Source: a virus
Taxonomy: Duplodnaviria; Caudoviricetes
Virus record (IMG/VR): IMGVR_UViG_3300018031_000009
Coordinates: 1 to 50,152 of that record
Length of the DNA: 50,152 nucleotides
Reading direction: 5' to 3' (one strand)
In this document: positions 9,100-39,666 of the stretch, in pieces
Layout of the letters: every line of letters begins with the position of its first letter
How positions within the stretch are numbered: the first letter of the stretch is position 1
Notes under the pieces: model-generated
Databases searched by the model: none
Told to the model about the DNA's origin: nothing
Seen by the model: only the letters and a program-made list of their open reading frames with translations
Position numbers and translations under genes: made by a program

Positions 9100-9240
9100 G
9101 GAGCGTAAGTGCCTGATTACCCTGCCGTGTCCATTATAGTGGACATGCAGCGAGGTACTGGCAGTACATCGCCAGTCAGAAAAAACGCTATGTTTTTCTG
9201 ACAGTTATCTCTTGATGGTGGGCAGTTTTTTGACCGTTTC
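9100..9240. other. Putative attP region between the convergent polyvalent and integrase genes
   Basis: Lies at the int 3' end. IHF-like TAAGTGCCTGATT (9106-9118) and three inverted repeats: TGTCCA-N6-TGGACA, CGAGGTACTG-G-CAGTACATCG (9151-9171) and GTCAGAAAAA-N8-TTTTTCTGAC (9175-9202). Confidence 0.6.
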
Positions 9241-10185: not shown

Positions 10186-10331
10186 GCCGCTTTGAACGCC
10201 CTTACGTCCTGTTCCTCGAACTCTACCCGCCGCCCGATCCGTGTGCAAGCGAGCGGCCCGCGCGGCGCGGCGAGGTCGTAGACGGTCCTCGGCGCAACGC
10301 CGAGGATTTTCGCGGCGTCGGCGGCGGTCAC
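9945..10331 (-). CDS. xis: Excisionase / HTH_17-type recombination directionality factor
   Basis: TAADAAKILGVAPRTVYDL...RIGRRVEFEEQDV. GTG start overlaps the upstream TGA (GTGA); immediately upstream of int. Confidence 0.8.
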   Translation of the reverse strand: MTAADAAKILGVAPRTVYDLAAPRGPLACTRIGRRVEFEEQDVRAFKAACRSISTRQRSVGDSSYAARSRVDVSATINCFLRGGLELKPSSSSGWRLVASRQSRPGSSATSRRSTKRSRSTSSTGSRT

Positions 10332-10621: not shown

Positions 10622-10860
10622 AACTGCACCTCATGTGCGACTGCGATGTAGGCGGCTGACGGCCGCAGATCGTTCTCCTGGCCCGGCCTGTAGGCTGCCC
10701 AGATCCTGTTTCGTAGCGCGCGTGGAAGCGTGAACCAATGCTTCAAGCAGCCCCACATCGCTGGCGGCACACGGGCCTCGCAGCCCGGCCAGTGGCACCC
10801 GTGTCCGCGCGATTGCCGTGCGGCCTTGACGTGCGCGACCTTGTCGCCGATCGAGGTCAT
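10582..10860 (-). CDS. Cys/His-rich putative Zn-binding phage protein
   Basis: CHWPGC...GCLKHW motif; TAATG coupling with the upstream gene. Confidence 0.7.
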   Translation of the reverse strand: MTSIGDKVAHVKAARQSRGHGCHWPGCEARVPPAMWGCLKHWFTLPRALRNRIWAAYRPGQENDLRPSAAYIAVAHEVQLWIQAYLVRPTLL

Positions 10861-11243
10861 TACGCTCGTCCGCTCCGTCTGTTGGAAGTCCCCCGGTCGG
10901 GGTGTTCGGTGAATCGCTCGAGGTGCCCGTCCAGTACGGGGCCTGGGGCGGCTTGCTGTTCGGTCGCGTGGTCTGTGACGACGCCGCGCTCGAGGTGGTA
11001 GGTCCTCACCACGACGCCGCCGGCCCGGCGCTCATCCGGGAGCTCCAGGTGGGCGCGCACCTTGGCGGCGAGCCGCATCATGGCGTCCGCGAGGTTCTTC
11101 TCCCGCGACCGCTCGCGCTGTCCGACGCAGCGGAGCCCCGTTGGCTTGTGGAGGAGGCGGCAACAGTTCTGGTGCTTGTTGCGGTACTGCCCGCCAGCCC
11201 CCGAGCCGCTGAACCAGGAGACCTCGACGTCATCGGGATTCAT
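10860..11243 (-). CDS. Stand-alone RF-1 (GGQ) peptidyl-tRNA hydrolase domain protein
   Basis: GSGAGGQYRNK, LLHKPTGL, RERSREKN and RTYH...VTDH...VLDGHL match class I release factor domain 3 plus the C-terminal segment. ATGA coupling at 11240-11243. Confidence 0.88.
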   Translation of the reverse strand: MNPDDVEVSWFSGSGAGGQYRNKHQNCCRLLHKPTGLRCVGQRERSREKNLADAMMRLAAKVRAHLELPDERRAGGVVVRTYHLERGVVTDHATEQQAAPGPVLDGHLERFTEHPDRGTSNRRSGRA

Positions 11244-11473
11244 GCGATCCAGTGGGGGTGGATCCACCGACGTTTATCGGTGTCGATGTTGCGGACGTAG
11301 ACACGTCCGCCGTACCCGTGCCGGATCACCGCGCCGGTGTGAAGGTGGCTGCCGAGCTCCCAGCTTATGCCGTCACCGACCGGGTAGAGGCGGCGCACCA
11401 GCGTCGAGAGCATGTCCTCGGCCGCGGAGACCGCGGCGAGTGCGCGGCGGACCGCGTCGGCCCGCGTCTCCAT
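11240..11473 (-). CDS. Hypothetical protein
   Basis: Start and stop overlap neighbours at both ends. Confidence 0.65.
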   Translation of the reverse strand: METRADAVRRALAAVSAAEDMLSTLVRRLYPVGDGISWELGSHLHTGAVIRHGYGGRVYVRNIDTDKRRWIHPHWIA

Positions 11474-17685: not shown

Positions 17686-17828
17686 CACATCCACCCTCCG
17701 ATGCTTCGTGGCCCGCGGCCGCCGCGGCCGTCTTTGTAGCCCTCGTCGTAGTAGTGCTGGTCCTTGCTCGAGCCGGCCATGAGGCCGGCGATGAACACGA
17801 TGACCAATCCGGCGATGTACCAGCCCAT
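17685..17828 (-). CDS. 47-aa single-pass membrane peptide
   Basis: MGWYIAGLVIVFIAGLMAG...YDEGYKDG; TAATG and TGATG overlaps. Confidence 0.6.
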   Translation of the reverse strand: MGWYIAGLVIVFIAGLMAGSSKDQHYYDEGYKDGRGGRGPRSIGGWM

Positions 17829-18787
17829 TACTTGTCTCCCCCAGAGAGCCACTTCTGGGCCTCGTTGAACTTCTCGAACGGGAACGCGGCGACCAGGACG
17901 CCGTACTTCGCGCGGAGGTCCTCCTCCGTCTTGCCGGCGCGGGCCAGGCTCGCGGTGAGGATGCGTTGCTGTGCCGGCTTGAGCGGCGTGTGTGGCGCCG
18001 CCCCTGGTGCCGCAGGGGGAAGTTCCGCGCCAACGGGAGGAGGACCATCAGCGACAGACTGCGACACGGGGGCGGCATTGACGGGGTCCGCAACGGCCGG
18101 CTGCTGAGTCGCCACAGGAGCCACCCGCGGGGCATCTACGACAGTTGCCGGCGTTGCGGATTCGGTGAGGGACTTCGGCCCCTCGACGCGTACCGACTCG
18201 ACATCGATCGCATCGTTGAGGGCCTTGCCGTGCATTTCCTCGGCGGTCGGGCCGCCGCAGAGCTTCGGGAACGCGCGCCGGAGCGCCTGGGCTTCCGCGC
18301 ACTTCTCGAGCTGGCCGATGGGGCGCTTCGTCCACATCGCGTTTGGGACTTTCGTGTCCCTCCCCTTCGTGGCGTAGGTCTCGGTCCAGAACACCTTGGC
18401 TGGAAACTCCGCGACCTGGCCCTGCACGAGCCGCTTCACCACGATGCGCGCCCACTCGGGATAGTCGATCGTGAAGTCGGCGACGGTGAGCGTTTGCATC
18501 GTGCCGTACTCGGTGTCGCTCAGGCCGATGTACTCGCCCGTGGACTCGGCTTTCTGCCGGTAGTAGTCCACCGAGGGCATGATGACGTCGCGGTAGCCGT
18601 TCGACTTCTTGTCGAACATCGGAACGATGTGGCAGGGTTTATCTAGGGGGTCCACTCCACGCGCTTCGCACCACCCGAGGACCATTTCGATCGATTCCAG
18701 CGCCGCGCCGGGATAGAGACTCGATTGGAGGACCAGGAGCGCCTTCGTGCGGTCCATCTTGAAAATCGGGAAGTTGTGGTCGTTCAC
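17828..18787 (-). CDS. bet: Bet/RecT-family ssDNA annealing recombinase
   Basis: SLYPGA...C...GVDP...HIVPM...YR..A..TGEY.G and MWTKRPIGQLEKCAEAQALRRAFP. Confidence 0.92.
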   Translation of the reverse strand: MNDHNFPIFKMDRTKALLVLQSSLYPGAALESIEMVLGWCEARGVDPLDKPCHIVPMFDKKSNGYRDVIMPSVDYYRQKAESTGEYIGLSDTEYGTMQTLTVADFTIDYPEWARIVVKRLVQGQVAEFPAKVFWTETYATKGRDTKVPNAMWTKRPIGQLEKCAEAQALRRAFPKLCGGPTAEEMHGKALNDAIDVESVRVEGPKSLTESATPATVVDAPRVAPVATQQPAVADPVNAAPVSQSVADGPPPVGAELPPAAPGAAPHTPLKPAQQRILTASLARAGKTEEDLRAKYGVLVAAFPFEKFNEAQKWLSGGDK

Positions 18788-18797
18788 CGATTCGCCC

Positions 18798-18989
18798 TCA
18801 CTTCTTCCCCCTCTTGGCGGCGGCCTCGCGGTCCGCGATGATCCTGGCGGCCTCGGCGGCGATGCGGGTCTCAACGCGCTCGATGGCTTCGCGCGCGAGG
18901 TACTCGTAGTGCGGCTGGAGGAGGTAGACGGTCCCGAGGACCAGCAGGCCCCCGAAGAACCCAGCGAGCGCGTGAGAGACGCCGCTCAC
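18798..18989 (-). CDS. Small membrane-anchored protein
   Basis: N-terminal hydrophobic helix; GTGA coupling. Confidence 0.6.
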   Translation of the reverse strand: MSGVSHALAGFFGGLLVLGTVYLLQPHYEYLAREAIERVETRIAAEAARIIADREAAAKRGKK

Positions 18990-19833: not shown

Positions 19834-20241
19834 ATGGACGAAGCCTCGTTCGTATCACACTTCCCAGGCGCGCGCCCCGCGGGCCGAGGGAAGTACACCG
19901 TGCGCTGTCCCGCGCACGATGACCGCGATCCCTCGCTGTCGATCGCGTTTCTCCCCGACGGTCGCGTGCTCGTTCACTGCCATGCTGGATGCGAAGCGGC
20001 AAGCGTAGTCGCGGCCGCCGGGCTCACGATGGAATCGCTCTTCCCCGAGGGCGTGAAGGTGCGCGACTACATGCCGGGCGGCGGCCCGTCGCGGCGCGAG
20101 CGGCGCACGCTTGACGACGAGGTACGCATCATCGCCATCGCGAAGGCGGATCTGGCCCTCGGGAAGAAGCTCTCCGAGCCCGACCAGGCGCGGGTGCGAA
20201 CCGCGGCCGATCGTCTGCGGCGCGCCGGGAGGGCGGCGTGA
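19834..20241 (+). CDS. Stand-alone primase-type CHC2 zinc-finger protein
   Basis: CPAHDDRDPSLSI...VHCHAGC; no TOPRIM domain follows. Confidence 0.85.
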   Translation: MDEASFVSHFPGARPAGRGKYTVRCPAHDDRDPSLSIAFLPDGRVLVHCHAGCEAASVVAAAGLTMESLFPEGVKVRDYMPGGGPSRRERRTLDDEVRIIAIAKADLALGKKLSEPDQARVRTAADRLRRAGRAA

Positions 20242-20498
20242 CGTCGTACTACAACGGGAAATTTGTCGACTTCACGCAGGCCGTCCAGCGGACTGGCGCG
20301 AAGACTCACACCTGGGCTGTGCTTACCGTCCAGGGCCACATCCCCGTCGGGGCGGTCAAGTGGTTCGGCCGCTGGCGCGGTTACGCCTTCTTCCCGTCAG
20401 CCGAGACCGTGTTCGAGCAGCACTGCCTACGCGACATTGCTCGCTTCTGCGAAGAACGGACCCGCGAGCATCGCCTGGCCCGGAGGGTGGCGGCGTGA
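20238..20498 (+). CDS. Hypothetical protein
   Basis: GTGA coupling at both ends; WFGRWRGYAFFP motif. Confidence 0.7.
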   Translation: MTSYYNGKFVDFTQAVQRTGAKTHTWAVLTVQGHIPVGAVKWFGRWRGYAFFPSAETVFEQHCLRDIARFCEERTREHRLARRVAA

Positions 20499-21094
20499 GC
20501 GACGGCGTCCGGTACTTCCGCGTCCGCAACTTCGAGCGGTTTCAGCACTACCGGGACCGCTCCCCGCCGTGGATCAAGCTCTACAACACCGTGCTCGAGG
20601 ACTACCACTACACCCGCTTGCCGGACGCTGCGCGATCGCACGTCGTTGCTATCTGGTTGCTAGCAAGTCGCACCAGTAACCGTATCCCCATGGATGCAAG
20701 TTGGGTGCAAGCAGCTATCAAGGCCACGGGGCCGGTAGACCTGGAACTACTGGAAAAACAGGGGTTTATCGTTGTGGAGCAGAGTGCTAGCGAGGCGCCA
20801 GCAAACCGCTCCGGTCACCGTACAGAGAGAGAGAGCAGAGGAGAGAGAGAGCAGACACGCGCTGCGCGCGCGGTGTTCACACCCCCCTCACTCGAGGAGG
20901 TGCGGGTCTTCGTCGCCGCGGAGAAGCTGAACGTGGACCCGGAGACGTTCGTCAGCCACTTCAAGTCGAACGGCTGGAAGGTTGGCGGCAAAGCCCCGAT
21001 GAAGGACTGGCAGGCCGCATGCCACACCTGGTCGTCGCGGAAGGGTAAGGAGCAGCCGCCGGCCGTCCGGCCAGAACCGCGCGGGTTGATTTGA
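20495..21094 (+). CDS. Phage replication initiator (O-like)
   Basis: NFERFQHYRDRSPPWIKL N-domain; FTPPSLEEV...F..HF.SNGWKVG...MKDWQAA..TW C-domain. Confidence 0.8.
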   Translation: MSDGVRYFRVRNFERFQHYRDRSPPWIKLYNTVLEDYHYTRLPDAARSHVVAIWLLASRTSNRIPMDASWVQAAIKATGPVDLELLEKQGFIVVEQSASEAPANRSGHRTERESRGEREQTRAARAVFTPPSLEEVRVFVAAEKLNVDPETFVSHFKSNGWKVGGKAPMKDWQAACHTWSSRKGKEQPPAVRPEPRGLI

Positions 21095-21096
21095 CC

Positions 21097-22107
21097 ATGC
21101 AAGTCCTCAACGAGATCATCACCGAGTCGGACATCGCGAAGGTCCTGGACGCCATCGAGCTCCAGGAGGTCCGGCCGGCGTCGGACTGGTGCTCGAAGCT
21201 GCTGCTGCCCGATCCCTCCGCGCAGGGCCGGATGCTGCCGTGGGGGAAGGCGCACGGCAAGTTCGATCTGCGTCCAGGCGAGGTGACGATCTGGGCGGGC
21301 GAGAACGGCGCCGGCAAGAGCGGCGCGATCGGCCAAGTGATCGCGTGGCAGCAGCCGAGGTGCCGGGCGATGATCGCCTCGATGGAGATGCCGCCGGTCC
21401 TCACGTTGCGGCGGATGGCGAACCAGATGTTCGGCGGCCCGGCGCCGCGCGAGTTCGCGGCGATGTTCGCCGACTGGACCGGCTACGGCGAGGAGTCGCG
21501 GCTGTTCATCTACGATCAGCTCGACACGGTGCCGGCGAAGAAGATCCTTGCGGTCACGCGCCTCGCGGCCGAGCGGCTGCGGCTCCACGACATCGTGATC
21601 GACTCGCTGACGAAGTGCGGCGTCTCCGGGCGCGACAAGTACGACCAGCAAATCGCGTTCGTGGACCGGCTCGCGTGGATTGCGAAATCGACCGGCGTCC
21701 ACATCCACCTGATCTGCCACCTCCGCAAAGGCGAGGACCAGTACGGTGCGCCGAATAAGTGGGACGTGCGCGGCCCCGGCGAGCTGACGGACCTGGTAGA
21801 CAACGTCGTGCTCATGTGGCGTAACCGCGCGAAGGAAGAGGCCGAAGAGGCGGTCGCGCTCGACAAGACGGTCGCGGAGGACATCGCGAAGCAGTGCGAC
21901 GTCTACCTCAAGCTCGGGAAGCAACGGCATTTCCCGTGGGAGGGGACGCTCGGGCTCTACTTCGACAAGCGATCTGGTCAGCTCACGCCGCGCCAAGACC
22001 GCGCGCCGATGCCGTGGCCCGCGGCCGGGAAGCCGGTGCCGTTCGAGTATCGAGCGGCGGACGCCGCGCCAGACCGAGTGACCGATGAAGGTTTCGAGGA
22101 ATTCTAG
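21097..22107 (+). CDS. SF4 (DnaB/T7 gp4-like) replicative helicase without primase domain
   Basis: AGENGAGKS, ASMEM, IVIDSL, CHLRK, DVRGPG...DNV. Confidence 0.9.
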   Translation: MQVLNEIITESDIAKVLDAIELQEVRPASDWCSKLLLPDPSAQGRMLPWGKAHGKFDLRPGEVTIWAGENGAGKSGAIGQVIAWQQPRCRAMIASMEMPPVLTLRRMANQMFGGPAPREFAAMFADWTGYGEESRLFIYDQLDTVPAKKILAVTRLAAERLRLHDIVIDSLTKCGVSGRDKYDQQIAFVDRLAWIAKSTGVHIHLICHLRKGEDQYGAPNKWDVRGPGELTDLVDNVVLMWRNRAKEEAEEAVALDKTVAEDIAKQCDVYLKLGKQRHFPWEGTLGLYFDKRSGQLTPRQDRAPMPWPAAGKPVPFEYRAADAAPDRVTDEGFEEF

Positions 22108-22110
22108 ATC

Positions 22111-22227
22111 GTGGAGATCGCCTGGATCATTTTCGAGTTTGGCGCACTTGTATTCTTCGCCGGGCTTGGGCTCTGGTGGATCGTGTTCAAGACGTTCGAG
22201 TACCTTGACGAAGACCGACGCGACTAA
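22111..22227 (+). CDS. 38-aa membrane peptide
   Basis: MEIAWIIFEFGALVFFAGLGLWWIVFKTF...; GAGGA RBS. Confidence 0.5.
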   Translation: MEIAWIIFEFGALVFFAGLGLWWIVFKTFEYLDEDRRD

Positions 22228-22261
22228 CCCGTTTCGACTTGGACCATACCGAGACCAACCC

Positions 22262-22531
22262 ATGATCCCGCCAGAGAAGCTCGCCGAGCTTGAGCTCAAG
22301 CACCCGGGCACGATCATCGTGGGCACGGTGAACAAGTCGAACGGGCTCAAATCCGTCGTCTACTTCCCGCGCTCGCTGAAGACGATCGAGCTGCTCATCG
22401 CCCGCTTCGGGTTCGGCGAGGAGCTGCACGGCTCGGTCATGCACATCAACCCGCCGAAGGAGCCCGGTGAGGTCGCGATCGGTTCGCCGCTGACGAGCGC
22501 GCCGCCGGAGCTGACGAAGAGGTCGACGTGA
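22262..22531 (+). CDS. Hypothetical protein
   Basis: Stop is coupled to the next GTG. Confidence 0.6.
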   Translation: MIPPEKLAELELKHPGTIIVGTVNKSNGLKSVVYFPRSLKTIELLIARFGFGEELHGSVMHINPPKEPGEVAIGSPLTSAPPELTKRST

Positions 22532-23040
22532 ACTGCCGTCGCTGCGCCAACATCCGAACCCGCCTGGTGGATTGGTTCATCGCGCTCTGCTGCCGCTACG
22601 GTCGCGAGGATCACCTCATGGACATCGACGGCAACGGGCACTACATGCGCCGCTGGGAGTTGATCCGCACGCCTTGGTTCGGCGTCCGGCTACACAACAC
22701 GCTGCGCCCCGACCTGGACAGGTATCTGCACGACCACCCCTGGGCCAACGTGTCGATCATCCTCAAGGGCTTCTACGTCGAGGCGCTTCCGCTGTTCGAC
22801 GAGCCGACGTTCGTGATGCACGCATGGCGTGGCGTGATGGTTGAGCCAGTGCGGAATGTCACCCGCGAGGCCGGTGCCGTGATCTTCCGGCGCGCCTGCG
22901 ATCGGCACAGCCTGACCGCGCTCTCGTGCGTGCCGTGCTGGTCGCTGTTCATCGTCGGCCCGCATAGGCGGGGATGGTGTTTCTACACGCCCGCAGGCAT
23001 GGTGCCGGCGGACGAATACAAAGCGAAAGGGAAACAGTGA
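22528..23040 (+). CDS. Cupin-like HDHPW-motif protein
   Basis: LHDHPW...SIILKGFYVE...FRRA...HSL...WSLFIVGP. Confidence 0.7.
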   Translation: MNCRRCANIRTRLVDWFIALCCRYGREDHLMDIDGNGHYMRRWELIRTPWFGVRLHNTLRPDLDRYLHDHPWANVSIILKGFYVEALPLFDEPTFVMHAWRGVMVEPVRNVTREAGAVIFRRACDRHSLTALSCVPCWSLFIVGPHRRGWCFYTPAGMVPADEYKAKGKQ

Positions 23041-23378
23041 GCACACCTACCGAAGAAGGCATCCAGGTCGGCGACGAGCGGAGCGTCCCCGCGGCGCTCG
23101 AGGAGCAACCGCGGCGCGGCCGGGCGTTGGATGCCTCGGAGCTGGCGGCGATGGAAGCCGTGCAGCAGCGCGGCGCCTCGAGCGTCATCGACGTCGAGAT
23201 CAACGCCGCGATCGAGCGCCTCCTCGACGGGGGCATCAAGGTTGCGGAGTTCGCTGTCGTGGTGCAGACAGCCGAGGGCGGCGTCAACGTCACGTCCAGT
23301 CACGGCGTCATGGGCGCGATCGGGATGCTGGCAAGGGGCGACGCCCTCGCTCGCAAAATCATGTTGATGCAGAAGTGA
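23037..23378 (+). CDS. Hypothetical protein
   Basis: GTGA coupling at both ends. Confidence 0.65.
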   Translation: MSTPTEEGIQVGDERSVPAALEEQPRRGRALDASELAAMEAVQQRGASSVIDVEINAAIERLLDGGIKVAEFAVVVQTAEGGVNVTSSHGVMGAIGMLARGDALARKIMLMQK

Positions 23379-23941
23379 GCCACGAGGGCGACATCTTCCT
23401 GCGAATCTCCGCGGCCATCGGGTCGGGGAGATCGCTGGTCTTCATCGGCGAAATGCAGCTCGCCGGGTGGCAGGACTCGCACAACGGCGGGTCCAAGGTG
23501 ACGCTCTGGCTGCCGGACGCGGAGGCGCTCGAATGCTTCCGCGACCTGACCGCCCGCAAGGGCAAGATGGCAGGACAGCGGCTCGCCGTCGTGATGATGG
23601 AAGTTCTCGACGACGAGTCATTCGGTTCCACACCGGCTGCGCCTAAGGCTTCCGAGCCCGTCGGGCGGGCGCAGCCGGTTGTGGAGCCGAGCGGCCCGGC
23701 GTGTGCCTGGCTAGTAATCCGTTGCCGGGAGCCGGTGTTTCAGACCTGGCTCGCCCACATCTACCCGGCGCTGTGGTTGAAGCACGATTTCCAGAACGCG
23801 GAGCCCCGGGCGCGCAAGGTTGTGCTCGACCTGTTGCAAGTCAACTCCCGAAAGGATGTGGATGGCGACGAACTGGCGCTGCGCCGCTTCAACCACCTTC
23901 GCGTCGCCTACGCGAAGCACCTCGAGTCGCGGGTGGTTTGA
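23375..23941 (+). CDS. Hypothetical protein (nin-like region)
   Basis: Coupled at both ends. Confidence 0.7.
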   Translation: MSHEGDIFLRISAAIGSGRSLVFIGEMQLAGWQDSHNGGSKVTLWLPDAEALECFRDLTARKGKMAGQRLAVVMMEVLDDESFGSTPAAPKASEPVGRAQPVVEPSGPACAWLVIRCREPVFQTWLAHIYPALWLKHDFQNAEPRARKVVLDLLQVNSRKDVDGDELALRRFNHLRVAYAKHLESRVV

Positions 23942-24324
23942 TGTACGTCACCTACAACAACGCGCAGCCCGAGGGCTCTTTCCGGCCCGCAGTCGACTTC
24001 GAGCTCATCCACGAGCGCCCGCTGGAGGTGATTCCGTACGTCCGCCTCGCGGCGACGATGTTGAATCAAGGCGTCAACGACAGCCGGATCAACACCTGGA
24101 CCGAGGTCAACCGCAAGCGTCGTGGGCGCAAGGCGCGGCCGGGTTTGCCGCTGACGCCGATCGAGCGCATGCGTGAGGACGCGCGCGGCTGGCTACTCAG
24201 CGACAGCGAGCGTCCATACGGGTTCGCATGGTGCTGCCGCTTGCTTGGACGCGATCCTACGGAGACGCGCGCCAAGGCGTTTACGGCTCCGCGCACGATG
24301 CACTACGTCCCCCTGATGACATGA
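23941..24324 (+). CDS. Hypothetical protein (A..WL...F...C..L..DP motif)
   Basis: TGATG and ATGA coupling. Confidence 0.7.
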   Translation: MYVTYNNAQPEGSFRPAVDFELIHERPLEVIPYVRLAATMLNQGVNDSRINTWTEVNRKRRGRKARPGLPLTPIERMREDARGWLLSDSERPYGFAWCCRLLGRDPTETRAKAFTAPRTMHYVPLMT

Positions 24325-24704
24325 CCCCGAATCAGCGCAGCGTCGTGCGACTCCGCGGTCTGGGCTACGACCCGATCGAGACGGTCGAGCATCGCATCCG
24401 CGGGCGCCGCTCCAAGGATCTGTGGGGCGGTGATGTTCTGGCGATTCGTTCGGCGCGGCCAGTGGGTCCAAGGATGCACTCGTGGTTCGTCGGCGAGACC
24501 TTGCTCGTGCAGGCGACCAGCGACAACGGCGGCAACGTCGCGGCGCGGGTGCGGAAGCTCATCGGGCTGCCGTCGACGGCGCGGCTGCTCGCGGCTGGGT
24601 GGCAGATCGAGGTCCACGGATGGGAGGGGGACCAGGTGCGTATCGTTTCCATTTTGCTGCTCAACGGCGTCGTGCAGGCGCCAGGGATCAAGCTCCGTGA
24701 CTAG
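24321..24704 (+). CDS. Hjc-like PD-(D/E)XK endonuclease, putative Holliday junction resolvase
   Basis: LRGLGY...VE...DLWGGDVLA...VQATS...IEVHGW. Confidence 0.7.
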   Translation: MTPNQRSVVRLRGLGYDPIETVEHRIRGRRSKDLWGGDVLAIRSARPVGPRMHSWFVGETLLVQATSDNGGNVAARVRKLIGLPSTARLLAAGWQIEVHGWEGDQVRIVSILLLNGVVQAPGIKLRD

Positions 24705-24827
24705 ACCGATCGGCTCGACGCGCTACCTCAGTCGAGGGATGCCGCACAGCTTGAAGCGCGACCGCAAGGTGTTCGTGCTGAACATGGCGGACTTCCCGGC
24801 GTGGATGACCCAGCAACCGAGGGTGCG

Positions 24828-25175
24828 ATGGCCAGCAGTTTCCTACCTCCCGGCCTGACGTTCCGCGCCGCCCTCCAGTACGGCTATGTCGGCCGGCTGG
24901 TGTGCGAGGACTACACCCGATGGGTGAAGACGCTGGAGTGCTGCTGCGGTTGCGGGCAGCCGGCGGATGACCCGCACCACCCTAAGCTCATGGGCTTCGC
25001 TGTCGCGGGCTCGAAGGTGCCGGATTGGTGGACGATCCCGCTCGCGCGGGCTTGCCACGATGCCCTGCACCAAAACGTGGAGCTGTGGGAGCGCCGGCAC
25101 GGGCTCCAGAGCGACCACATCCTGATGACGTTGACCAGAGCCCTATGGGCTGGGGTGTTGAAATTCAACTCGTGA
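24828..25175 (+). CDS. DUF968/HNH-like protein
   Basis: YTRWVKTLECCCGCG...DDPHH...D..TIPL.R.CHDALH...WE..HG.Q. Confidence 0.8.
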   Translation: MASSFLPPGLTFRAALQYGYVGRLVCEDYTRWVKTLECCCGCGQPADDPHHPKLMGFAVAGSKVPDWWTIPLARACHDALHQNVELWERRHGLQSDHILMTLTRALWAGVLKFNS

Positions 25176-25187
25176 AGGAGTGATTTA

Positions 25188-25511
25188 GTGGAAAGCGTGA
25201 TGCTGGTTACGTTGGGGTTGGCGGTAGCGTTCTTGGCCGGAATCGCATTCGGATGGGTGGTTGCCTACCAGCGCGGCTTCCGGGCTGGCTGGACCAAGCC
25301 GTGGCGCAAGCCGCACGGGTTGAGGGAACTCGCGGAGGCGTGGGACAAGCAAAAGATCGCCGCGCGGCAAGAGCGGGTCGAGGAGGCGTGGGATAAGCAA
25401 CAGAGCCCCCCCCTCGCCGGCGGGGTTGCGCAAGGCGTCCAGATGGGACCCGGCGACGCCTTCAAGCCCGGTGACGGCCTGTACCAGCCGGTCGCCAAGA
25501 GCGAGTCGTGA
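25188..25511 (+). CDS. Membrane-anchored hypothetical protein
   Basis: AAGGAG RBS; N-terminal TM followed by YQRGFRAG. Confidence 0.7.
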   Translation: MESVMLVTLGLAVAFLAGIAFGWVVAYQRGFRAGWTKPWRKPHGLRELAEAWDKQKIAARQERVEEAWDKQQSPPLAGGVAQGVQMGPGDAFKPGDGLYQPVAKSES

Positions 25512-26026
25512 ACCGCGTAGATTGGCCGCACGTCCTCCGCTCGATCGGGCTCCAGCTCGATCCGAAGCGGCCCGTGGCGGCGCTCGCCGAGGCCCTCAAC
25601 GCCGAGGGTTTCGAGGTCTCTCGCGACACGGTCCGTAACTGGACCGGCGGGCGCAAGGGGCGCCTCACCGATCCCGACGTGGTTTTGTGGGCGTCCCGGC
25701 AAGCGATCCGCCGCGGGATCAAACTCCGGCCGCCCTTGTCCGCCATGACGGCCCAGGAGCTCCAGGACGAGGTCAACCAGCGCACCTCGAAGGTGCTCCA
25801 GGGGATTGTCCGGCGGAATCCGCCGCCGGTCGGCGGACGGCGTGGCGTGGCGGTAGCTCAGTCGGTAGAGCGCGGGGATGTGGCCCCCGTCGTCGTGGGT
25901 TCGAGCCCCACCCGTCACCCCCCGCTGCCTGCCGACGCCGCCGAGAACGCCGCCACCGCCGCGGAGTTCGCCGCGCGCGAGGTCGCGCCGGCCCCCTCAG
26001 ACGATGACGTTGGAGACGTAATGTGA
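25508..26026 (+). CDS. HTH-like protein whose 3' half overlaps a tRNA gene
   Basis: VAALAEAL...VSRDTVRNWTGG; GTGA start coupling and TGATG stop coupling. Confidence 0.6.
   Translation: MNRVDWPHVLRSIGLQLDPKRPVAALAEALNAEGFEVSRDTVRNWTGGRKGRLTDPDVVLWASRQAIRRGIKLRPPLSAMTAQELQDEVNQRTSKVLQGIVRRNPPPVGGRRGVAVAQSVERGDVAPVVVGSSPTRHPPLPADAAENAATAAEFAAREVAPAPSDDDVGDVM
25847..25919 (+). tRNA. tRNA-His (GTG)
   Basis: Acceptor GTGGCGG/CCGTCAC, D arm GCTC/GAGC, anticodon arm CGGGG-ATGTGGC-CCCCG (GTG at 25880-25882), T arm GTGGG-TTCGAGC-CCCAC, discriminator C. No encoded CCA or G-1. Confidence 0.85.
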
Positions 26027-26415
26027 TGGCAGCCTTTCACCAGGACCTCCTGCCGGCGATCGAGCTCGCCCTGATCCAGTGGGCGGCCTGGGTGCGGGCG
26101 TACAACGTCCGGGGCCGGCTCGGGCTGCCCGACCATTCGCCGGGCTTCCTGTCCGGCGGGATGCATGGCAGCGTGGATGCCTCCTTCGAGGAGACATACG
26201 GCCACGAGATCGACGTCCGCCGCGCCAGCGCGATCGAGGCGGTGATCCAGGGGCTCGTGCGCCCCGAGCAGATCGCCCTCGAGGACGAGTACGGCCTGAG
26301 CATCAACAAGTGGCGGTTCGTGGTGTTGCAGGAGGGCTTCGAGGTCGTCCTGGCCCGCGCGAAGCGGAACGTCCTTGCCGGTGTCCGGCGCCGCGGCGAT
26401 GTTTGGCTTGGCTGA
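26026..26415 (+). CDS. Putative Q-like late regulator/antiterminator
   Basis: L..WA.W...LG.P...D...IEAVIQGL...QIAL...Y pattern; position at the end of the nin-like region. Confidence 0.55.
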   Translation: MAAFHQDLLPAIELALIQWAAWVRAYNVRGRLGLPDHSPGFLSGGMHGSVDASFEETYGHEIDVRRASAIEAVIQGLVRPEQIALEDEYGLSINKWRFVVLQEGFEVVLARAKRNVLAGVRRRGDVWLG

Positions 26416-26416
26416 A

Positions 26417-26581
26417 ATGACCATCCGGCCGCGAATCACGCTGCGGCGGGTCAAGTCGGGGACCGGATACCTCGTCACCGTGAGGTCTGACTACTGGCAC
26501 CGATCCACCTACGTCCCGGTGGCTACGTTCGGGGAGGTGGTGCGCGCGCTTTCGGAGAGGTGGGAGAGGTACGCCCCATGA
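26417..26581 (+). CDS. Hypothetical protein
   Basis: ATGA coupling to the next gene. Confidence 0.5.
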   Translation: MTIRPRITLRRVKSGTGYLVTVRSDYWHRSTYVPVATFGEVVRALSERWERYAP

Positions 26582-26976
26582 ACCGGCGAGGCTTCCTTGC
26601 CGCTCTCGGGTTGGGGTTGGTCGCCCCTGCCTGGGCATTTAAGCCAAAGCCAACTCACCCACTGTTCGCCGGGCAGGTCGGCCACTACAGCGAAATCACC
26701 ATCCGCCACATCGAGGCCATGAGGGCGGCGATCGATTCCGCTGAGTGGGGTTCCGAGTATTTGATTGTCGTAAACCCAAAGCAATTCAAGTGGTTGAAGG
26801 AGGGGGCGGCGCGCTCTTCCTGGAGGGAGGTCCACCGGGCCTGGAGGGTGGCCGGCAGGCCAGGAAGCAGCGATCCTCGCTCGGTCCTGGCCGCGACGAA
26901 GTGCGATCTGTGGCATAGCCTGCGGTTTGCGGAAAAAGTCACGCTTCCACTCGACGTGGTTGACGCCGGTCCCTAG
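26578..26976 (+). CDS. Tat-signal protein resembling a major-capsid fragment
   Basis: MNRRGFLAALGLGLVAPAWA signal; HPLFAGQVG and other blocks resemble the MCP at 47097-48386. Confidence 0.6.
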   Translation: MNRRGFLAALGLGLVAPAWAFKPKPTHPLFAGQVGHYSEITIRHIEAMRAAIDSAEWGSEYLIVVNPKQFKWLKEGAARSSWREVHRAWRVAGRPGSSDPRSVLAATKCDLWHSLRFAEKVTLPLDVVDAGP

Positions 26977-26988
26977 TAGGGGGATACT
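26960..26988 (+). promoter_or_regulatory. sigma70-type promoter (pR'-like)
   Basis: TTGACG - 17 bp - GATACT, with CCTAGTAG in the spacer. Confidence 0.7.
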
Positions 26989-27054
26989 CTGCTCGTGGGG
27001 ACGGCGCTCGCCCCAACTGAACGGCGCCCTCCGGGTTCCCGGAGCTATCTACCC

Positions 27055-27083
27055 AGCGCCGGCTCCCGCCGGCGCTTCCATTT
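27055..27083 (+). terminator. Terminator/attenuator-like hairpin
   Basis: AGCGCCGGC-TCCC-GCCGGCGCT followed by a weak T tract (TCCATTT). Confidence 0.45.
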
Positions 27084-27095
27084 CTGGAGCTCAAC

Positions 27096-27326
27096 ATGCC
27101 CGACAAGGTGCGCCCGCTGAACGTGTACGCCCCGGCGGGCGTCCGCAAAGGCAAGATCGAGGAGCGCGTGCGCCGCGGCGAAATCGGGGCTCTGAGCGAT
27201 GTGCCCGCCCCGACGCCGGTACCAGGGCTCGGCGAGCGCATTGCGCCCGCCGGCAGCATCGAGGAGAAGCTGTTGAAGGACGCGGAGCGCAAGAAGCGCG
27301 CGAGCGCCCCGCCGATCAAGGACTAG
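27096..27326 (+). CDS. Hypothetical protein
   Basis: GGAG RBS; downstream of the promoter. Confidence 0.65.
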   Translation: MPDKVRPLNVYAPAGVRKGKIEERVRRGEIGALSDVPAPTPVPGLGERIAPAGSIEEKLLKDAERKKRASAPPIKD

Positions 27327-27336
27327 CGCGCGGGCT

Positions 27337-27465
27337 TCACCACTTCGGCCCGAAGAGCAACTCGAGCAGCACGAGCAGGGCGATCGCCACGATGATGGCG
27401 ATGATCTCGCTGCGGCGGTTCTTGGGACTGCCCTCGTTGGGGTCATCGTAGCGGTCGCCGCTCAT
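27337..27465 (-). CDS. 42-aa membrane peptide
   Basis: EIIAIIVAIALLVLLELLFG; ATGA coupling. Confidence 0.55.
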   Translation of the reverse strand: MSGDRYDDPNEGSPKNRRSEIIAIIVAIALLVLLELLFGPKW

Positions 27466-27680
27466 GGCAATAGCGGCCTAATGTCGAGAGGGATGTTTCG
27501 CCTCGCGAAGCGGTAAGCTGCCAGCCGACTCTCGAACCCTGCGATCGGCGCATGGAATCCCAGGAATGCCGACTTCGAGCTGTATCGAGCGTAGGTCACG
27601 CGCATGTCGTAATGCACGCCGTCGAACGTGACTCCCGGTGGGACCGCGACGAGCCAGTAGTAGACGTCGGACGTTTTCAT
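27462..27680 (-). CDS. Hypothetical protein
   Basis: Coupled at both ends. Confidence 0.6.
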   Translation of the reverse strand: MKTSDVYYWLVAVPPGVTFDGVHYDMRVTYARYSSKSAFLGFHAPIAGFESRLAAYRFARRNIPLDIRPLLP

Positions 27681-28078
27681 GCGAGCGCTTCCACGTCGAA
27701 GGCTTCCATCGCGGCGTTGAAGCCGTCCGGGTCGTTCTCCGAAAACGTCCAGTCGGAGATCACGTCGATGCCATTGCCTAGGACCAGGGTGATCGTGTGC
27801 CGGCGCTGACTTGCCGGACTGCGCCCCACGTCCTTCGTCAAGATCAGGTAGGCCAAATCGACGTTGAAGACCAGTTCCATCGCGGTCTTCATGTCGCGCG
27901 CTGGCTCCAGCTCATCGCCGCCATCGTCCACGGCGATCAGGGCGAAGCCCGCGGCGTCCAGGTGCGCGATCAGATTGGCGACGATGCGCCGCTCCAGGCG
28001 CCCCCCGGGGCTGACTTCCTGCGCTGCATCGACGGCGAGGGATGGGACCTGAACGGCCCCGCAGGTCGGGCACTTCAT
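27677..28078 (-). CDS. Early-phage hypothetical protein
   Basis: AVDDGGDE...LVLGNGIDVISDW motif; coupled. Confidence 0.7.
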   Translation of the reverse strand: MKCPTCGAVQVPSLAVDAAQEVSPGGRLERRIVANLIAHLDAAGFALIAVDDGGDELEPARDMKTAMELVFNVDLAYLILTKDVGRSPASQRRHTITLVLGNGIDVISDWTFSENDPDGFNAAMEAFDVEALA

Positions 28079-38130: not shown

Positions 38131-39666
38131 ATGTCGGTGAAGCGGAAGCTCCACTCGACGTGGCAGATGTCGAAGGAGGACTTCAAGATCCTCGAGCTCA
38201 TGGCCGACTACTACGCGGATCCGTACGGGTTCGTGTGCGACGTCTTCGCCTGGGGCAAGGGCGAGCTCTCCGAGCACGCCGGCCCGGACGACTGGCAGCG
38301 CGAGGTGCTGCTCGAGATTGGGCGCCGGGTGGCCGAGAACACCGAGGAGAAGCCGGACGGCACCTGGGACATGAAGCCGTTGGCTGACGCCATCCAGATC
38401 GCGGTCGCGTCGGGCCACGGGGTTGGGAAGAGCGCACTGATCGCGTGGATCATCCTGTGGTTCATGTCGACGCGCGAGCACCCGCAGATCCCGGTAACGG
38501 CGAACACGCAGCACCAGCTCTTGACGAAGACGTGGCGGGAGCTGTCGCGCTGGCACCAGCGGTGCTTCCACAAGCACTGGTTCGAGTGGACGGCGACGCG
38601 CTTCTACCACAAGGCGTTTCCGGAGACCTGGTTCGCCGCGGCGATTGCCTGGTCGAAGCAGCACTCGGAGGCGTTCGCGGGAACGCACGAGAAGCACGTC
38701 CTGCTCTTGATGGACGAGGGCTCGGCGATCCCGGACATGATCTGGGAGGTGTCGGACGGCGCGATGTCGACGCCGGGCGCCATTCGCATCGCGTTCGGCA
38801 ACCCGACGCGGAATCACGGCCGGTTCTCCGAGTGCTTCCGCAAGTTCAAGGCCCGGTGGTGGACGCGGCAGATCGACTCGCGCACCTCGCGGCTGACGAA
38901 CAAAGTCCTGATTCAGCAGGCGATCGACGACTACGGCGAGGACAGTGACTTCGTCCGGGTCCGGTGGCGCGGCCTGTTCCCGCGGCAGTCGGAGACGCAG
39001 TTCATCTCGAGCGAAGCCGTCTTCGCGGCCCAGCAGAAGAACCTCCCCGAGGAGGCGTACAAGGACCAGCCGAAGGTGGTGTCGGTCGACGTCGCGCGGC
39101 ACGGCGGCTGCAAGACGGTCATCACGATGCGGCAGGGCCGGAAGGTCTGGCCGCAGATCAAGCTGCGGATCCCCGACCTGGTGCAGGTTTCGCGCCACGT
39201 CGCGAACGTGATCGAGGATTTTCAGCCGGACGTCCCGACGCAGGTTGACGCGACGGGCATGGGATGGGGCGTGGTCGACACGCTGCGCTCCTGGGGCTAC
39301 GCGGTGAGCGGCGTCGAGGTCGGCACGAAGGCGGACCGATCGGAGCAGTACCACGATCGCCGATCCGAGCTCTGTGACAAGATGAAAAAGTGGGTCGGCG
39401 ACGGCGCGGACATCCCGCCGGATCCCGAGCTCGCGGACGAGCTCACCTCGCTCGCGCACCGCTACGACGACAAACAACGGCTCGAGCTCCTCTCGAAGCA
39501 GCACATGGAGAAGGTGCTCGACCTCCCGAGCCCCGACTGCGCGGACTCGCTGATGATTTCCTTCAACGCGCCGTTGGTCGGGACCAAGTCGTCCGACTCG
39601 ACGGCGGCCCGACGCAAGGCCCGCGAGAAGCGGGGCGAGCGTTTTAATTGGAAAGCCGGAGCATGA
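38131..39666 (+). CDS. terL: Terminase large subunit
   Basis: SGHGVGKS, LLLMDEG, FGNPTR, VDVAR.G, D.TG.G.GV.D, SPDCADS. Confidence 0.95.
   Translation: MSVKRKLHSTWQMSKEDFKILELMADYYADPYGFVCDVFAWGKGELSEHAGPDDWQREVLLEIGRRVAENTEEKPDGTWDMKPLADAIQIAVASGHGVGKSALIAWIILWFMSTREHPQIPVTANTQHQLLTKTWRELSRWHQRCFHKHWFEWTATRFYHKAFPETWFAAAIAWSKQHSEAFAGTHEKHVLLLMDEGSAIPDMIWEVSDGAMSTPGAIRIAFGNPTRNHGRFSECFRKFKARWWTRQIDSRTSRLTNKVLIQQAIDDYGEDSDFVRVRWRGLFPRQSETQFISSEAVFAAQQKNLPEEAYKDQPKVVSVDVARHGGCKTVITMRQGRKVWPQIKLRIPDLVQVSRHVANVIEDFQPDVPTQVDATGMGWGVVDTLRSWGYAVSGVEVGTKADRSEQYHDRRSELCDKMKKWVGDGADIPPDPELADELTSLAHRYDDKQRLELLSKQHMEKVLDLPSPDCADSLMISFNAPLVGTKSSDSTAARRKAREKRGERFNWKAGA

What the first reader, a model, noticed from the sequence alone, without database searches (positions are those of the whole stretch)
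25508..26026. Complete tRNA-His nested in-frame inside a protein-coding gene
Seen: a fully paired cloverleaf (25847-25919) on the same strand as a 172-aa HTH ORF. The ORF reads through it without a stop, continues ~35 codons, and couples (TGATG) to the Q-like gene. The tRNA has the His discriminator C but lacks encoded G-1 and CCA, and its anticodon loop starts with A. Known: RNase P and 3' nucleases cut at tRNA folds, and G-1 is the main HisRS identity element in most bacteria. Inference: either an mRNA-processing switch that destroys the HTH cistron and changes Q-like gene expression, or a tRNA decoy or replacement against anticodon nucleases.
Basis: partly seen in the sequence, partly recalled or inferred. 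Interest (0 to 1): 0.85.

Follow-up and report, generated by a model that had tools for sequence, protein, structure and literature searches.

The report
tRNA-His gene nested inside phage gene
A complete histidine tRNA gene sits in frame inside the floppy middle of a real regulatory-type gene of an uncultured temperate phage, so one stretch of DNA is both tRNA and protein code; this layout is rare, has one published bacterial precedent, and has been seen by this scan in other phages.

Summary
A canonical tRNA-His(GTG) lies at 25847-25919 (+): ARAGORN and Rfam RF00005 at 58.4 bits against a cut-off of 29. The 172-aa ORF 25508-26026 reads through it, and its TGA overlaps the next gene's ATG.

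The ORF is a real gene on both sides of the tRNA. A metagenomic relative, L002 (68% identical overall, 78% over residues 1-101), has no tRNA. It keeps the same N-terminal domain, the same C-terminal tail (dN 0.10, dS 0.90, Fisher p 1e-4) and the same TGATG junction.

The tRNA is an in-frame insertion into a proline/alanine-rich linker that is predicted to be disordered. Contigs from other runs match the sequence without differences, and one run also holds the tRNA-less allele.

Base -1 is C, whereas all 119 cellular tRNA-His genes compared have G.

The most likely mechanism is inferred, not shown: one operon transcript yields either the full protein or, after RNase P and 3' trimming, the tRNA.

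The published precedent is selC nested in selB (Mukai 2021). This scan has already noted nested tRNAs in marine phages on other DNA. I class this as a new variant of a known kind. No RNA data were available.

The parts
25508..26026 (+). 172-aa host gene that contains the tRNA (GTG start overlapping the upstream stop; TGA stop overlapping the next start)
   Evidence: ORF list. The codon-usage log-likelihood favours this frame over both shifted frames in the N-part, the tRNA part and the tail. Relatives are P0001 (171 of 172 identical), L002:11-526 (171 aa) and P0003 (96 aa).
25508..25846 (+). N-terminal 113 codons: helical HTH-like domain (about aa 1-75), a further helix (82-103) and the start of the Pro-rich linker
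   Evidence: AF2 model: blocks of residues 1-70 have pLDDT 73-92, with helices 6-17, 22-32, 39-47, 56-69 and 82-103. The Atlas structure rows match HTH_3 clusters at TM 0.79-0.85 by row over residues 3-78 (a lead). Pfam gives only sub-threshold HTH hits. P0003 matches residues 2-74 at 38% identity.
25846..25846 (+). Base -1 of the tRNA: C, where bacterial tRNA-His genes encode G
   Evidence: Read directly. All 119 cellular tRNA-His genes with the same 5' half have G here, as does Erythrobacter phage XM05 tRNA-His. It is the third base of a Gly codon (GGC), so G would be synonymous.
25847..25919 (+). tRNA-His(GTG), 73 nt, canonical cloverleaf, discriminator C at 25919, no encoded CCA (CCC follows)
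   Evidence: ARAGORN. Rfam RF00005 at 58.4 bits, E 1.5e-11. Cloverleaf is the minimum-free-energy fold. Best identity to the cellular tRNA-His genes compared is 63 of 73, and 83% to the phage XM05 tRNA.
25878..25884 (+). Anticodon loop ATGTGGC (A32, U33, GTG 25880-25882, G37, C38)
   Evidence: Read directly. The cellular comparators have TTGTGGT (114) or TTGTGAT (5) of 119. Other contigs in the same runs carry T at 25878 and T at 25884 (table 3).
25920..26023 (+). C-terminal tail of the host protein (about 35 codons, Ala/acidic-rich), translated only by ribosomes that have read through the tRNA
   Evidence: Log-likelihood favours frame 0 by 32.5 and 19.7 over the shifted frames. The last 28 codons against L002 show 11 synonymous and 6 non-synonymous differences, dS 0.90, dN 0.10, Fisher p 1.0e-4. 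There is no in-frame ATG, GTG or TTG between the tRNA and the last codon (read).
26012..26028 (+). GGAG (26012-26015) plus the TGATG stop/start overlap that leads into the next gene
   Evidence: Read directly. The same TGATG junction is in L002.
26026..26415 (+). Downstream 129-aa gene, a possible late-gene regulator (Q-like or sigma region-4-like; lead only)
   Evidence: GC3 0.91. Homologues follow the HTH gene in L002 (72% identity) and L003 (46%). 9 relatives were found, none with a functional name (2 are called 'hypothetical protein', the rest unnamed). Atlas leads. No Pfam or PHROG hit.
25188..25511 (+). Upstream 107-aa gene of the same operon, whose stop overlaps the start of the host gene (GTGA)
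   Evidence: ORF list and GC3 0.83. No family hit of note.

Best explanation
A working-looking tRNA-His gene was inserted, in frame and on the coding strand, into the disordered Pro/Ala-rich linker of a small early-operon gene of a temperate phage. That gene has an HTH-like N-domain and a conserved acidic tail.

The locus has no promoter-like site of its own, so the tRNA can only come from the operon transcript. Each RNA molecule therefore has two possible fates.

1. Ribosomes read through the tRNA sequence. This adds 24 tRNA-encoded residues to the linker, keeps the cloverleaf unfolded, and ends at the TGA that overlaps the start of the next gene, a possible late regulator.
2. The cloverleaf folds and RNase P plus 3' nucleases cut it out. 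This leaves a stop-less 5' fragment of the host gene and a separate 3' fragment that still carries the next gene with its own GGAG.

Shown: the tRNA, the open frame, that both flanks are one conserved gene, that the tRNA is the derived state, and that the sequence is not an assembly error.

Inferred: co-transcription, processing, translation of the full-length protein, and any benefit of the coupling.

Whether the released RNA is charged with histidine is open, because the G-1 identity base is missing.
For: The tRNA is canonical.

The gene is real on both sides.
- Codon statistics favour the frame in the N-part, by 92.4 and 77.0 log units over 113 codons, and in the tail, by 32.5 and 19.7 over 35 codons.
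- Relative L002 has no tRNA by ARAGORN or by Rfam at E up to 5. It encodes a 171-aa protein with the same N-domain, the same tail and the same TGATG junction.
- The tail has dN 0.10 against dS 0.90, Fisher p 1.0e-4.

The tRNA is the derived state.
- The segment just upstream of the tRNA aligns to L002's linker (score 13.5; 0 of 500 shuffles reach it). The tRNA itself matches nothing there (290 of 500 shuffles reach its score).
- L002 and P0003 share a PPI.KPA..PP linker motif at the spot the tRNA occupies.

The insert lies in a region modelled as disordered: pLDDT 41-54 from residue 101 to the end.

No sigma-70-like promoter lies between 24000 and 26959, and no + strand terminator-like site follows the tRNA.

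Contigs from three runs are identical across the junctions. One run also holds an L002-like allele that replaces 25644-25939 (296 nt) with 293 other letters.

The same layout, a nested same-strand tRNA with the ORF stop on the next start, and the same either/or model are published for selC in selB (PMC8124441).
Against: There are no RNA or protein data: no RNA run holds the stretch.

The arrangement is seen in one lineage only: the window, plus P0001 at 171 of 172 residues, plus near-identical contigs. The nearest relative lacks the tRNA. Selection for keeping the frame open after the insertion therefore cannot be measured. The tail's low dN/dS may largely predate the insertion.

About 2 in 9 random insertions would stay open.

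In a 133-nt context, the predicted minimum-energy fold is not the cloverleaf. Such predictions ignore tRNA tertiary contacts.

The missing G-1 suggests the tRNA may be a poor HisRS substrate, or in early decay.

The promoter and terminator scan is a crude consensus scan.
Confidence: 0.6

Rival explanations
1. This is a tolerated accident. A recent insertion of an ordinary phage tRNA gene landed in a linker and happens to keep the frame. The protein merely tolerates the extra residues or is dispensable, and nothing about the overlap is selected or regulatory.
For: The chance of an open, frame-preserving insertion is about 2 in 9. Only one lineage carries the tRNA, and a tRNA-less allele circulates in the same community. 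The linker varies in length and sequence among relatives: L002 has its own roughly 27-aa extra segment and P0003 ends inside the linker. Related phages keep a tRNA at the end of the same operon, but between genes (Achromobacter phage CF418P1).
Against: Even a neutral insertion forces tRNA release and the host mRNA to compete for the same molecule. Earlier notes of this scan report the frame staying open in many relatives of other nested phage tRNAs (not checked here). The precedent in selB is conserved across orders.
Confidence: 0.25
2. The RNA is not a normal histidine acceptor. Lacking G-1, it acts as a decoy or a nuclease-resistant stand-in aimed at host anticodon nucleases, or it is a tRNA gene in early decay.
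For: Base -1 is C, although G would be synonymous in the host codon. All 119 cellular comparators and phage XM05 have G-1. A32 and C38 differ from all 119 comparators. The window encodes no Thg1-like enzyme (0 matches) and no HisRS (0 matches). Phage tRNAs with altered anticodon loops are proposed to evade host tRNases, colicin E5 being named among them (PMC10264068, abstract). That colicin E5 cuts tRNA-His is recalled, not checked.
Against: All other conserved tRNA positions are intact and all stems pair, which argues against decay. The host and its HisRS are unknown. Some bacteria charge tRNA-His without G-1, or add G-1 after transcription (recalled knowledge, not tested here).
Confidence: 0.13
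3. It is an artefact: an assembly chimera or a sequencing error creates the apparent read-through.
For: The record is a metagenome assembly, and tRNA genes are repeats that can mis-join contigs. Several short contigs of other organisms do pile up on the tRNA (records 4, 13, 14, 18, 25, 27).
Against: Contigs from different runs span both junctions with 0 differences (X4 record 11; X1 record 1; X5 record 16; X6 record 26 covers 25855-26105). A separate 43.7-kb contig encodes the same protein. The flanks belong to one gene, as L002 shows.
Confidence: 0.02

Closest known systems
selC (tRNA-Sec) nested inside the selB ORF of Alphaproteobacteria (Mukai 2021, Int J Mol Sci 22:4605, PMC8124441; abstract and passages read)
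   Same: A whole tRNA lies on the coding strand inside an ORF. tRNA base 1 is the first base of a codon. The ORF's stop overlaps the start of the next ORF. The proposed model is the same: tRNA processing gives a non-stop mRNA, so protein and tRNA are alternatives. Both cases are bioinformatic only.
   Different: Here the tRNA is an ordinary elongator (His), in a phage, with no functional tie to the host protein. It sits between two conserved protein parts instead of forming a C-terminal extension. It is known from one lineage only, with a tRNA-less allele alongside, and it lacks its main identity base.
Nested in-frame tRNAs in a small gene of SAR11-type marine phages
   Same: A phage tRNA lies in frame in the flexible middle of a small conserved gene.
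   Different: The host gene is different: no look-alike of this protein was found in other windows. The phage is a high-GC temperate type from freshwater sediment. The tRNA is His. Here only one lineage carries it, so selection on the frame cannot be counted.
tRNA genes at the end of the early-right operon of temperate phages, e.g. Achromobacter phage CF418P1 (OQ817832.1), whose capsid protein is the nearest at 54% identity
   Same: The position in the genome map is the same: after the replication and 'nin-like' genes and before the packaging genes, on the same strand.
   Different: In that phage the tRNA lies between genes (45322-45408, after a CDS ending at 45290). Here it is inside one.
Bacterial tRNA-His genes (119 cellular examples with the same 5' half; Erythrobacter phage XM05 tRNA-His)
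   Same: The acceptor 5' strand and D-arm are the same, as are the GTG anticodon, C73 and the T-arm type. Up to 63 of 73 bases are identical.
   Different: C replaces G at -1. The loop has A32 and C38 instead of T32 and T38. There is a G-T pair at 4:69.

Membership tests
tRNA (Rfam RF00005) | Score over the family's gathering threshold, with a full-length cloverleaf | tested here: met
   58.4 bits against 29, model positions 1-71 of 71, E 1.5e-11. ARAGORN calls tRNA-His GTG. The cloverleaf is the MFE fold of the 73 nt.
Bacterial tRNA-His | Genome-encoded G at position -1, opposite C73 | tested here: not met
   25846 is C. All 119 cellular comparators have G, as does phage XM05.
Bacterial tRNA-His | GTG anticodon and discriminator C73 | tested here: met
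   GTG at 25880-25882 and C at 25919. All 119 comparators have C73.
Nested tRNA inside a protein ORF (selB-selC type, Mukai 2021) | An entire tRNA on the coding strand, read through without a stop, within an ORF that is a real gene | tested here: met
   (frame). (both flanks are one conserved gene).
Nested tRNA inside a protein ORF (selB-selC type, Mukai 2021) | The ORF's stop overlaps the start of the next ORF | tested here: met
   TGATG at 26024-26028. The same junction is in L002.
Nested tRNA inside a protein ORF (selB-selC type, Mukai 2021) | The arrangement is conserved across relatives, as a sign of selection | tested here: inconclusive
   The tRNA is present in the window, in P0001 and in near-identical contigs. 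It is absent from L002 and L003. No further relatives were found in viral, genome or protein collections.
Nested tRNA inside a protein ORF (selB-selC type, Mukai 2021) | The tRNA is excised from the mRNA, and protein and tRNA are alternatives | not testable with these tools
   No RNA run holds the stretch. This is also untested in the published case.
HTH_3 / Cro-C1 type DNA-binding domain (PF01381) | Pfam match over threshold, or a clear fold match | tested here: inconclusive
   Pfam gives only sub-threshold HTH_Tnp_Tc3_2 (18.1 bits against 31.5) and HTH_NDX. Foldseek against the PDB gives no match at E up to 0.001. Atlas structure rows match HTH_3 clusters at TM 0.79-0.85 by row (a lead).
Phage antiterminator Q (PF06530) for the downstream gene | Pfam or PHROG match, or a fold match | tested here: not met
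   0 Pfam and 0 PHROG families at E up to 0.1. The AF2 model is too poor to search, at pLDDT 45. Only Atlas leads exist: 0.92 to a Q-family cluster, and sigma region-4-like structure rows at TM about 0.5.

The most novel reading that the evidence does not exclude
The overlap is a selected timing device of the lysis-lysogeny programme. Folding and excision of the tRNA from the early-right transcript shuts off the HTH-like protein. It also frees, or changes the translation of, the coupled late-regulator cistron.

On this reading the released G-1-less tRNA, with its altered anticodon loop, serves as a histidine tRNA or decoy that host anticodon nucleases cannot cut. The phage's own GGQ mini release factor (10860-11264, minus strand) clears ribosomes stalled on the stop-less 5' fragments that the excision creates.
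Probability: 0.1. Interest if true: 0.85.

Novelty: new variant of a known kind. Interest (0 to 1): 0.6.

Why it matters
Gene finders and annotation rules forbid a tRNA inside a coding gene, so cases like this are usually hidden by truncating or dropping the ORF.

Here two natural alleles of one gene, one with and one without the tRNA, occur in the same sediment community. That gives a clean before/after pair. It shows that a tRNA can be carried as an in-frame passenger in a disordered protein linker.

If both products are made, the locus is a compact natural test bed for three questions:
- how translation and RNA processing compete for one transcript;
- what happens to the resulting non-stop mRNA;
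- whether a tRNA-His without G-1 can work.

It also extends the single published bacterial precedent (selC in selB) to phages, to an ordinary elongator tRNA and to an internal position in the protein.

Tried and rejected
Expression. The look-up of sequencing runs listed six DNA holders and no RNA holder. This says nothing either way about expression.

More relatives. The searches below yielded only P0001, P0003, L002 and L003.
- Word-index protein search with the ORF and with alignment A1.
- Full HMMER scan of 1.84 billion representatives. It gave 4 hits. P0002 is a spurious ORF over a tRNA array and P0004 is a weak low-complexity match; I dropped both.
- Viral contigs by protein and by three DNA strings.
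- Genome contigs by alignment A2.
- blastn against 50,697 phage records. Only the tRNA matched, in 2 records.

I therefore could not fetch P0001's 43.7-kb contig, the 101.9-kb contig that carries the downstream gene, or the longer L002-type contig.

Rejected ideas.
- L002's linker is a decayed tRNA. Rejected: ARAGORN finds none, Rfam finds none at E up to 5, and the local alignment is no better than shuffles.
- The tRNA has its own promoter or terminator. None was found (a weak test).
- Flanking direct repeats. None. A CGCCGCCG on both sides is simple triplet sequence.
- A phage Thg1 or HisRS. None.

Function of the host protein. Foldseek against the PDB gave nothing at E up to 0.001. The pdb_via_wide library was not available. 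The model of the downstream protein was too poor to search.

Literature. Six searches found no paper in the held library describing a tRNA nested in a phage ORF. Only Mukai 2021 uses such terms. Papers PMC9144972 and PMC5418858 were opened and were irrelevant. One search was a malformed query.

Supplements. Supplementary tables of PMC10264068, which analyse anticodon-loop changes in other species, are closed. They might bear on the A32/C38 reading.
Full report
WHAT THE WINDOW IS. The window is an IMG/VR virus record of 50,152 bases, estimated 91% complete, with 66.5% G+C. It is a temperate tailed phage. PHROG hits identify an integrase (9205-10248, minus strand), a RecT-like annealing protein (17828-18874, minus), a primase/helicase (21091-22107, plus), a large terminase (38131-39666), a portal (40251-42857) and a major head protein (47097-48386). 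An HNH/DUF968 gene lies at 24801-25175.

The capsid protein is closest to Achromobacter phage CF418P1 (54% identity). Next come 933W-type, Vibrio, Pseudomonas, Ralstonia and Burkholderia phages. A proteobacterial host is therefore likely but not shown.

The finding lies near the end of a plus-strand gene string running from about 20238 to 27326. This is the "early-right" operon, upstream of the packaging genes.

THE OBSERVATION. ARAGORN finds exactly one tRNA in the window, tRNA-His(GTG), at 25847-25921. Rfam's tRNA model matches 25847-25919 over its full length at 58.4 bits against a gathering score of 29, E 1.5e-11. The 73 nt fold into the cloverleaf at minimum free energy.

Read directly, the tRNA has:
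- a 7-bp acceptor stem with one G-T pair;
- T8, A14, G18 G19 and T33;
- GTG at 25880-25882;
- T54 T55 C56 A58 and discriminator C at 25919.

Base -1 (25846) is C. CCCCG follows the discriminator, so no CCA is encoded. The anticodon loop is ATGTGGC.

The ORF 25508-26026 (172 aa) runs through the tRNA, and tRNA base 1 is the first base of codon 114. Its GTG start overlaps the stop of the upstream gene. Its TGA overlaps the ATG of the downstream gene (TGATG), eight bases after the end of a GGAG.

IS THE ORF A GENE, AND DOES IT REALLY CONTINUE PAST THE tRNA? In a 66% G+C genome an open frame means little. Two of the three phases of this tRNA are stop-free, and the same is true of all 119 cellular tRNA-His genes examined. 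All three forward frames are also open from the tRNA to about 26007-26026. The test has to be coding signal and homology.

Codon statistics trained on 12 confident genes of the window favour the ORF's frame over both shifted frames:
- by 92.4 and 77.0 log units in the 113 codons before the tRNA;
- by 32.5 and 19.7 in the 35 codons after it.

Homologues are few.
- P0001 is the same protein, 171 of 172 residues identical, on another contig.
- P0003 is a 96-aa protein matching residues 2-74 at 38%.
- The decisive one is a metagenome contig, L002. It encodes a 171-aa protein that is 78% identical over residues 1-101 (68% overall).

L002 has no tRNA by ARAGORN and no tRNA match in Rfam even at E up to 5. 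Yet its protein ends with the same tail (AEN.AT.AEFAAREVAPA..DDDVGD.M) and the same TGATG junction to a homologue of the downstream gene, which is 72% identical.

Over the last 28 codons, the window and L002 differ by 11 synonymous and 6 non-synonymous changes, giving dS 0.90 and dN 0.10, Fisher p 1.0e-4. The tail is therefore protein-coding sequence under purifying selection. There is no in-frame start codon between the tRNA and the tail, so in the window it can only be translated by ribosomes that have read through the tRNA.

WHICH STATE IS DERIVED? The 16 bases encoding QGIV just upstream of the tRNA align to L002's linker; 0 of 500 shuffles reach the score. The tRNA aligns to nothing in L002; 290 of 500 shuffles reach its score.

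L002 (NPPIPKPAAAPPPDEAEN) and the distant P0003 (PPIEKPAEVPPAQ) share a Pro/Ala linker motif. At that spot the window has NPPPVGGRRG, the 24 tRNA-encoded residues, then PPLPADAAEN. The tRNA is therefore an insertion into the linker. L002's linker is not a decayed tRNA.

AlphaFold2 models residues 1-70 as a confident helical domain (pLDDT 73-92). Everything from residue 101 onwards has low confidence (41-54), including the tRNA-encoded stretch and the tail.

The first 38 codons of the two alleles differ by a single synonymous base, while the rest is at dS about 0.9. This is a mosaic joint typical of phage recombination.

IS IT AN ASSEMBLY ERROR? Six DNA runs from freshwater sediment hold the stretch; three of them may be the source. 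I laid contigs from four runs.
- X4 record 11 (3914 nt) spans 25591-26415 with 0 differences and 0 gaps.
- X5 record 16 spans 25188-25899 with 0 differences and 0 gaps.
- X1 record 1 spans 25188-25960 with 0 differences and 0 gaps.
- X6 record 26 spans 25855-26105 with 0 differences and 0 gaps.

In run X4, a second contig (record 12, depth 5.2 against 11.4) joins 25643 to 25940 with 293 other letters in place of 296. In X6, a contig leaves the window at 25643 into sequence that reads like L002. So the tRNA-bearing and tRNA-less alleles co-occur in the same habitat.

THE tRNA ITSELF. All 80 listed titles are Actinomycetota MAGs (mostly labelled Gaiellaceae, Gaiellales, Thermoleophilia or Actinomycetes, a few Solirubrobacterales). 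This is a truncated, non-random sample and says nothing about the host.

In the 119 usable genes:
- base -1 is G in 119;
- base 73 is C in 119;
- the anticodon loop is TTGTGGT in 114 and TTGTGAT in 5;
- none encodes CCA;
- the best identity to the phage tRNA is 63 of 73.

The nearest phage tRNA, from Erythrobacter phage XM05 (83% identity), also has G-1, C73 and CCA. One cellular-type contig in run X6 likewise shows G just before 25847 (table 7).

The phage tRNA therefore deviates at -1 (C), at position 32 (A) and at position 38 (C). The -1 base is the third base of a glycine codon, GGC. G would be synonymous there, so the coding frame does not explain its absence.

The window encodes no Thg1-like enzyme and no HisRS. 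G-1 is the major HisRS identity element in most bacteria, and some lineages do without it or add it after transcription. Both statements are established knowledge recalled here, not tested.

The phage's own genes use CAC 141 times and CAT 8 times in 7,539 codons. A GTG anticodon would thus match its usage.

HOW IT MOST LIKELY WORKS. No sigma-70-like promoter lies between 24000 and 26959. The only one found starts at 26960, downstream. No plus-strand terminator-like site follows the tRNA (a crude scan). The tRNA would then be made from the operon transcript.

If it is made at all, cutting it out must sever that copy of the host mRNA. The 5' piece would lack a stop codon. The 3' piece would begin in the tail and keep the downstream gene with its GGAG. 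Conversely, ribosomes translating through 25847-25919 would keep the cloverleaf unfolded.

This is the model Mukai proposed for selC nested in selB. I regard the anatomy as shown, at confidence about 0.9. The two-fates mechanism is the best inference, at 0.6 overall. A selected regulatory role is unproven.

The main rival is that this is a tolerated accident. About 2 in 9 insertions would stay open. The linker is variable. Only one lineage has the tRNA.

A second rival is that the RNA is not a normal histidine acceptor but a decoy, a nuclease-resistant variant or a gene in early decay. The missing G-1 and the altered loop point that way, and phage tRNAs with changed loops have been proposed to escape host tRNases (PMC10264068, abstract and passages). 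The otherwise perfect cloverleaf argues against decay.

WHAT THE NEIGHBOURS ARE. The N-domain is HTH-like only at lead level. Pfam hits are below cut-off. No PDB fold match reaches E 0.001. The ESM Atlas structure rows match HTH_3 clusters at TM 0.79-0.85 by row.

The downstream gene has no Pfam or PHROG family. It has nine relatives, none with a functional name (two are called 'hypothetical protein', the rest unnamed), and a poor model at pLDDT 45. Atlas leads point to an antiterminator-Q cluster (0.92) and to small sigma region-4-like phage proteins. "Q-like" is therefore a reasonable guess, not a finding.

COMPARISON AND NOVELTY. Mukai 2021 (PMC8124441) reports tRNA-Sec genes nested in selB ORFs whose stops overlap the next start. 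The paper calls it the first nested tRNA in a bacterial ORF.

This scan has already noted in-frame nested tRNAs in a small gene of marine SAR11-type phages on other DNA. Those notes are AI notes that I did not check. They led me to the Mukai paper, which I read myself. No look-alike of the present protein is among the scan's other windows.

Six literature searches found no paper in the held library on a tRNA nested in a phage ORF.

The present case is a new variant for four reasons:
- it is an ordinary elongator tRNA;
- it lies in a temperate high-GC phage;
- it sits between two conserved parts of an unrelated regulatory-type protein;
- a natural tRNA-less allele exists alongside it, and its key identity base is missing.

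LIMITS.
- There are no RNA or protein data.
- The host is unknown.
- Only four family members are known.
- The comparator tRNAs are a truncated sample.
- The structure-based labels are leads only.

Noticed in passing
window 10860-11264 (-): A 134-aa phage protein with a Pfam RF-1 (GGQ peptidyl-tRNA hydrolase) domain: PF00472, 59.6 bits, E 3.7e-16. It looks like an ArfB-like mini release factor. If tRNA excision leaves stop-less mRNA fragments, such a factor could free the stalled ribosomes. That link is pure speculation.
   Followed up: partly
window 25498-25643 vs L002 1-146: The first 38 codons of the host gene, plus the 10 bases upstream, are almost identical between the window and L002 (one synonymous difference). 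The rest of the gene is at dS about 0.9. This is a sharp mosaic recombination joint inside the gene.
   Followed up: partly
L002 921-1304 (+): L002 carries an extra HNH-type endonuclease-like ORF (127 aa, Cys/His motifs) between the Q-like gene and the twin-arginine-signal gene. The window lacks it there and instead has an HNH/DUF968 gene at 24801-25175. Free-standing endonucleases may drive the mosaicism around the tRNA site.
   Followed up: no
window 26960-26988 (+): The only sigma-70-like promoter match in 24000-28000 (TTGACG, 17 nt spacer, GATACT) lies just after the 26560-26976 gene, downstream of the tRNA locus.
   Followed up: no
window 26560-26976 (+) and L002 1345-1764: A conserved small protein with an N-terminal twin-arginine-like signal (NRRGFL...) follows the Q-like gene in both phages. 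It has a faint PHROG hit to major head protein (E 0.054).
   Followed up: no
protein P0002: A 386-aa database 'protein' is plainly a spurious ORF read through four tandem tRNA copies, with a repeated ...LAQLVERW.FKPVVVGSSPTG... segment. This shows that tRNA-derived peptides sit in protein collections and can seed false homology.
   Followed up: no
window 25820-25840 (+): A GC-rich hairpin (CCGCCG/CGGCGG arms) lies directly 5' of the tRNA, inside the Pro-rich linker codons. In a 133-nt context, the predicted fold competes with the cloverleaf.
   Followed up: no
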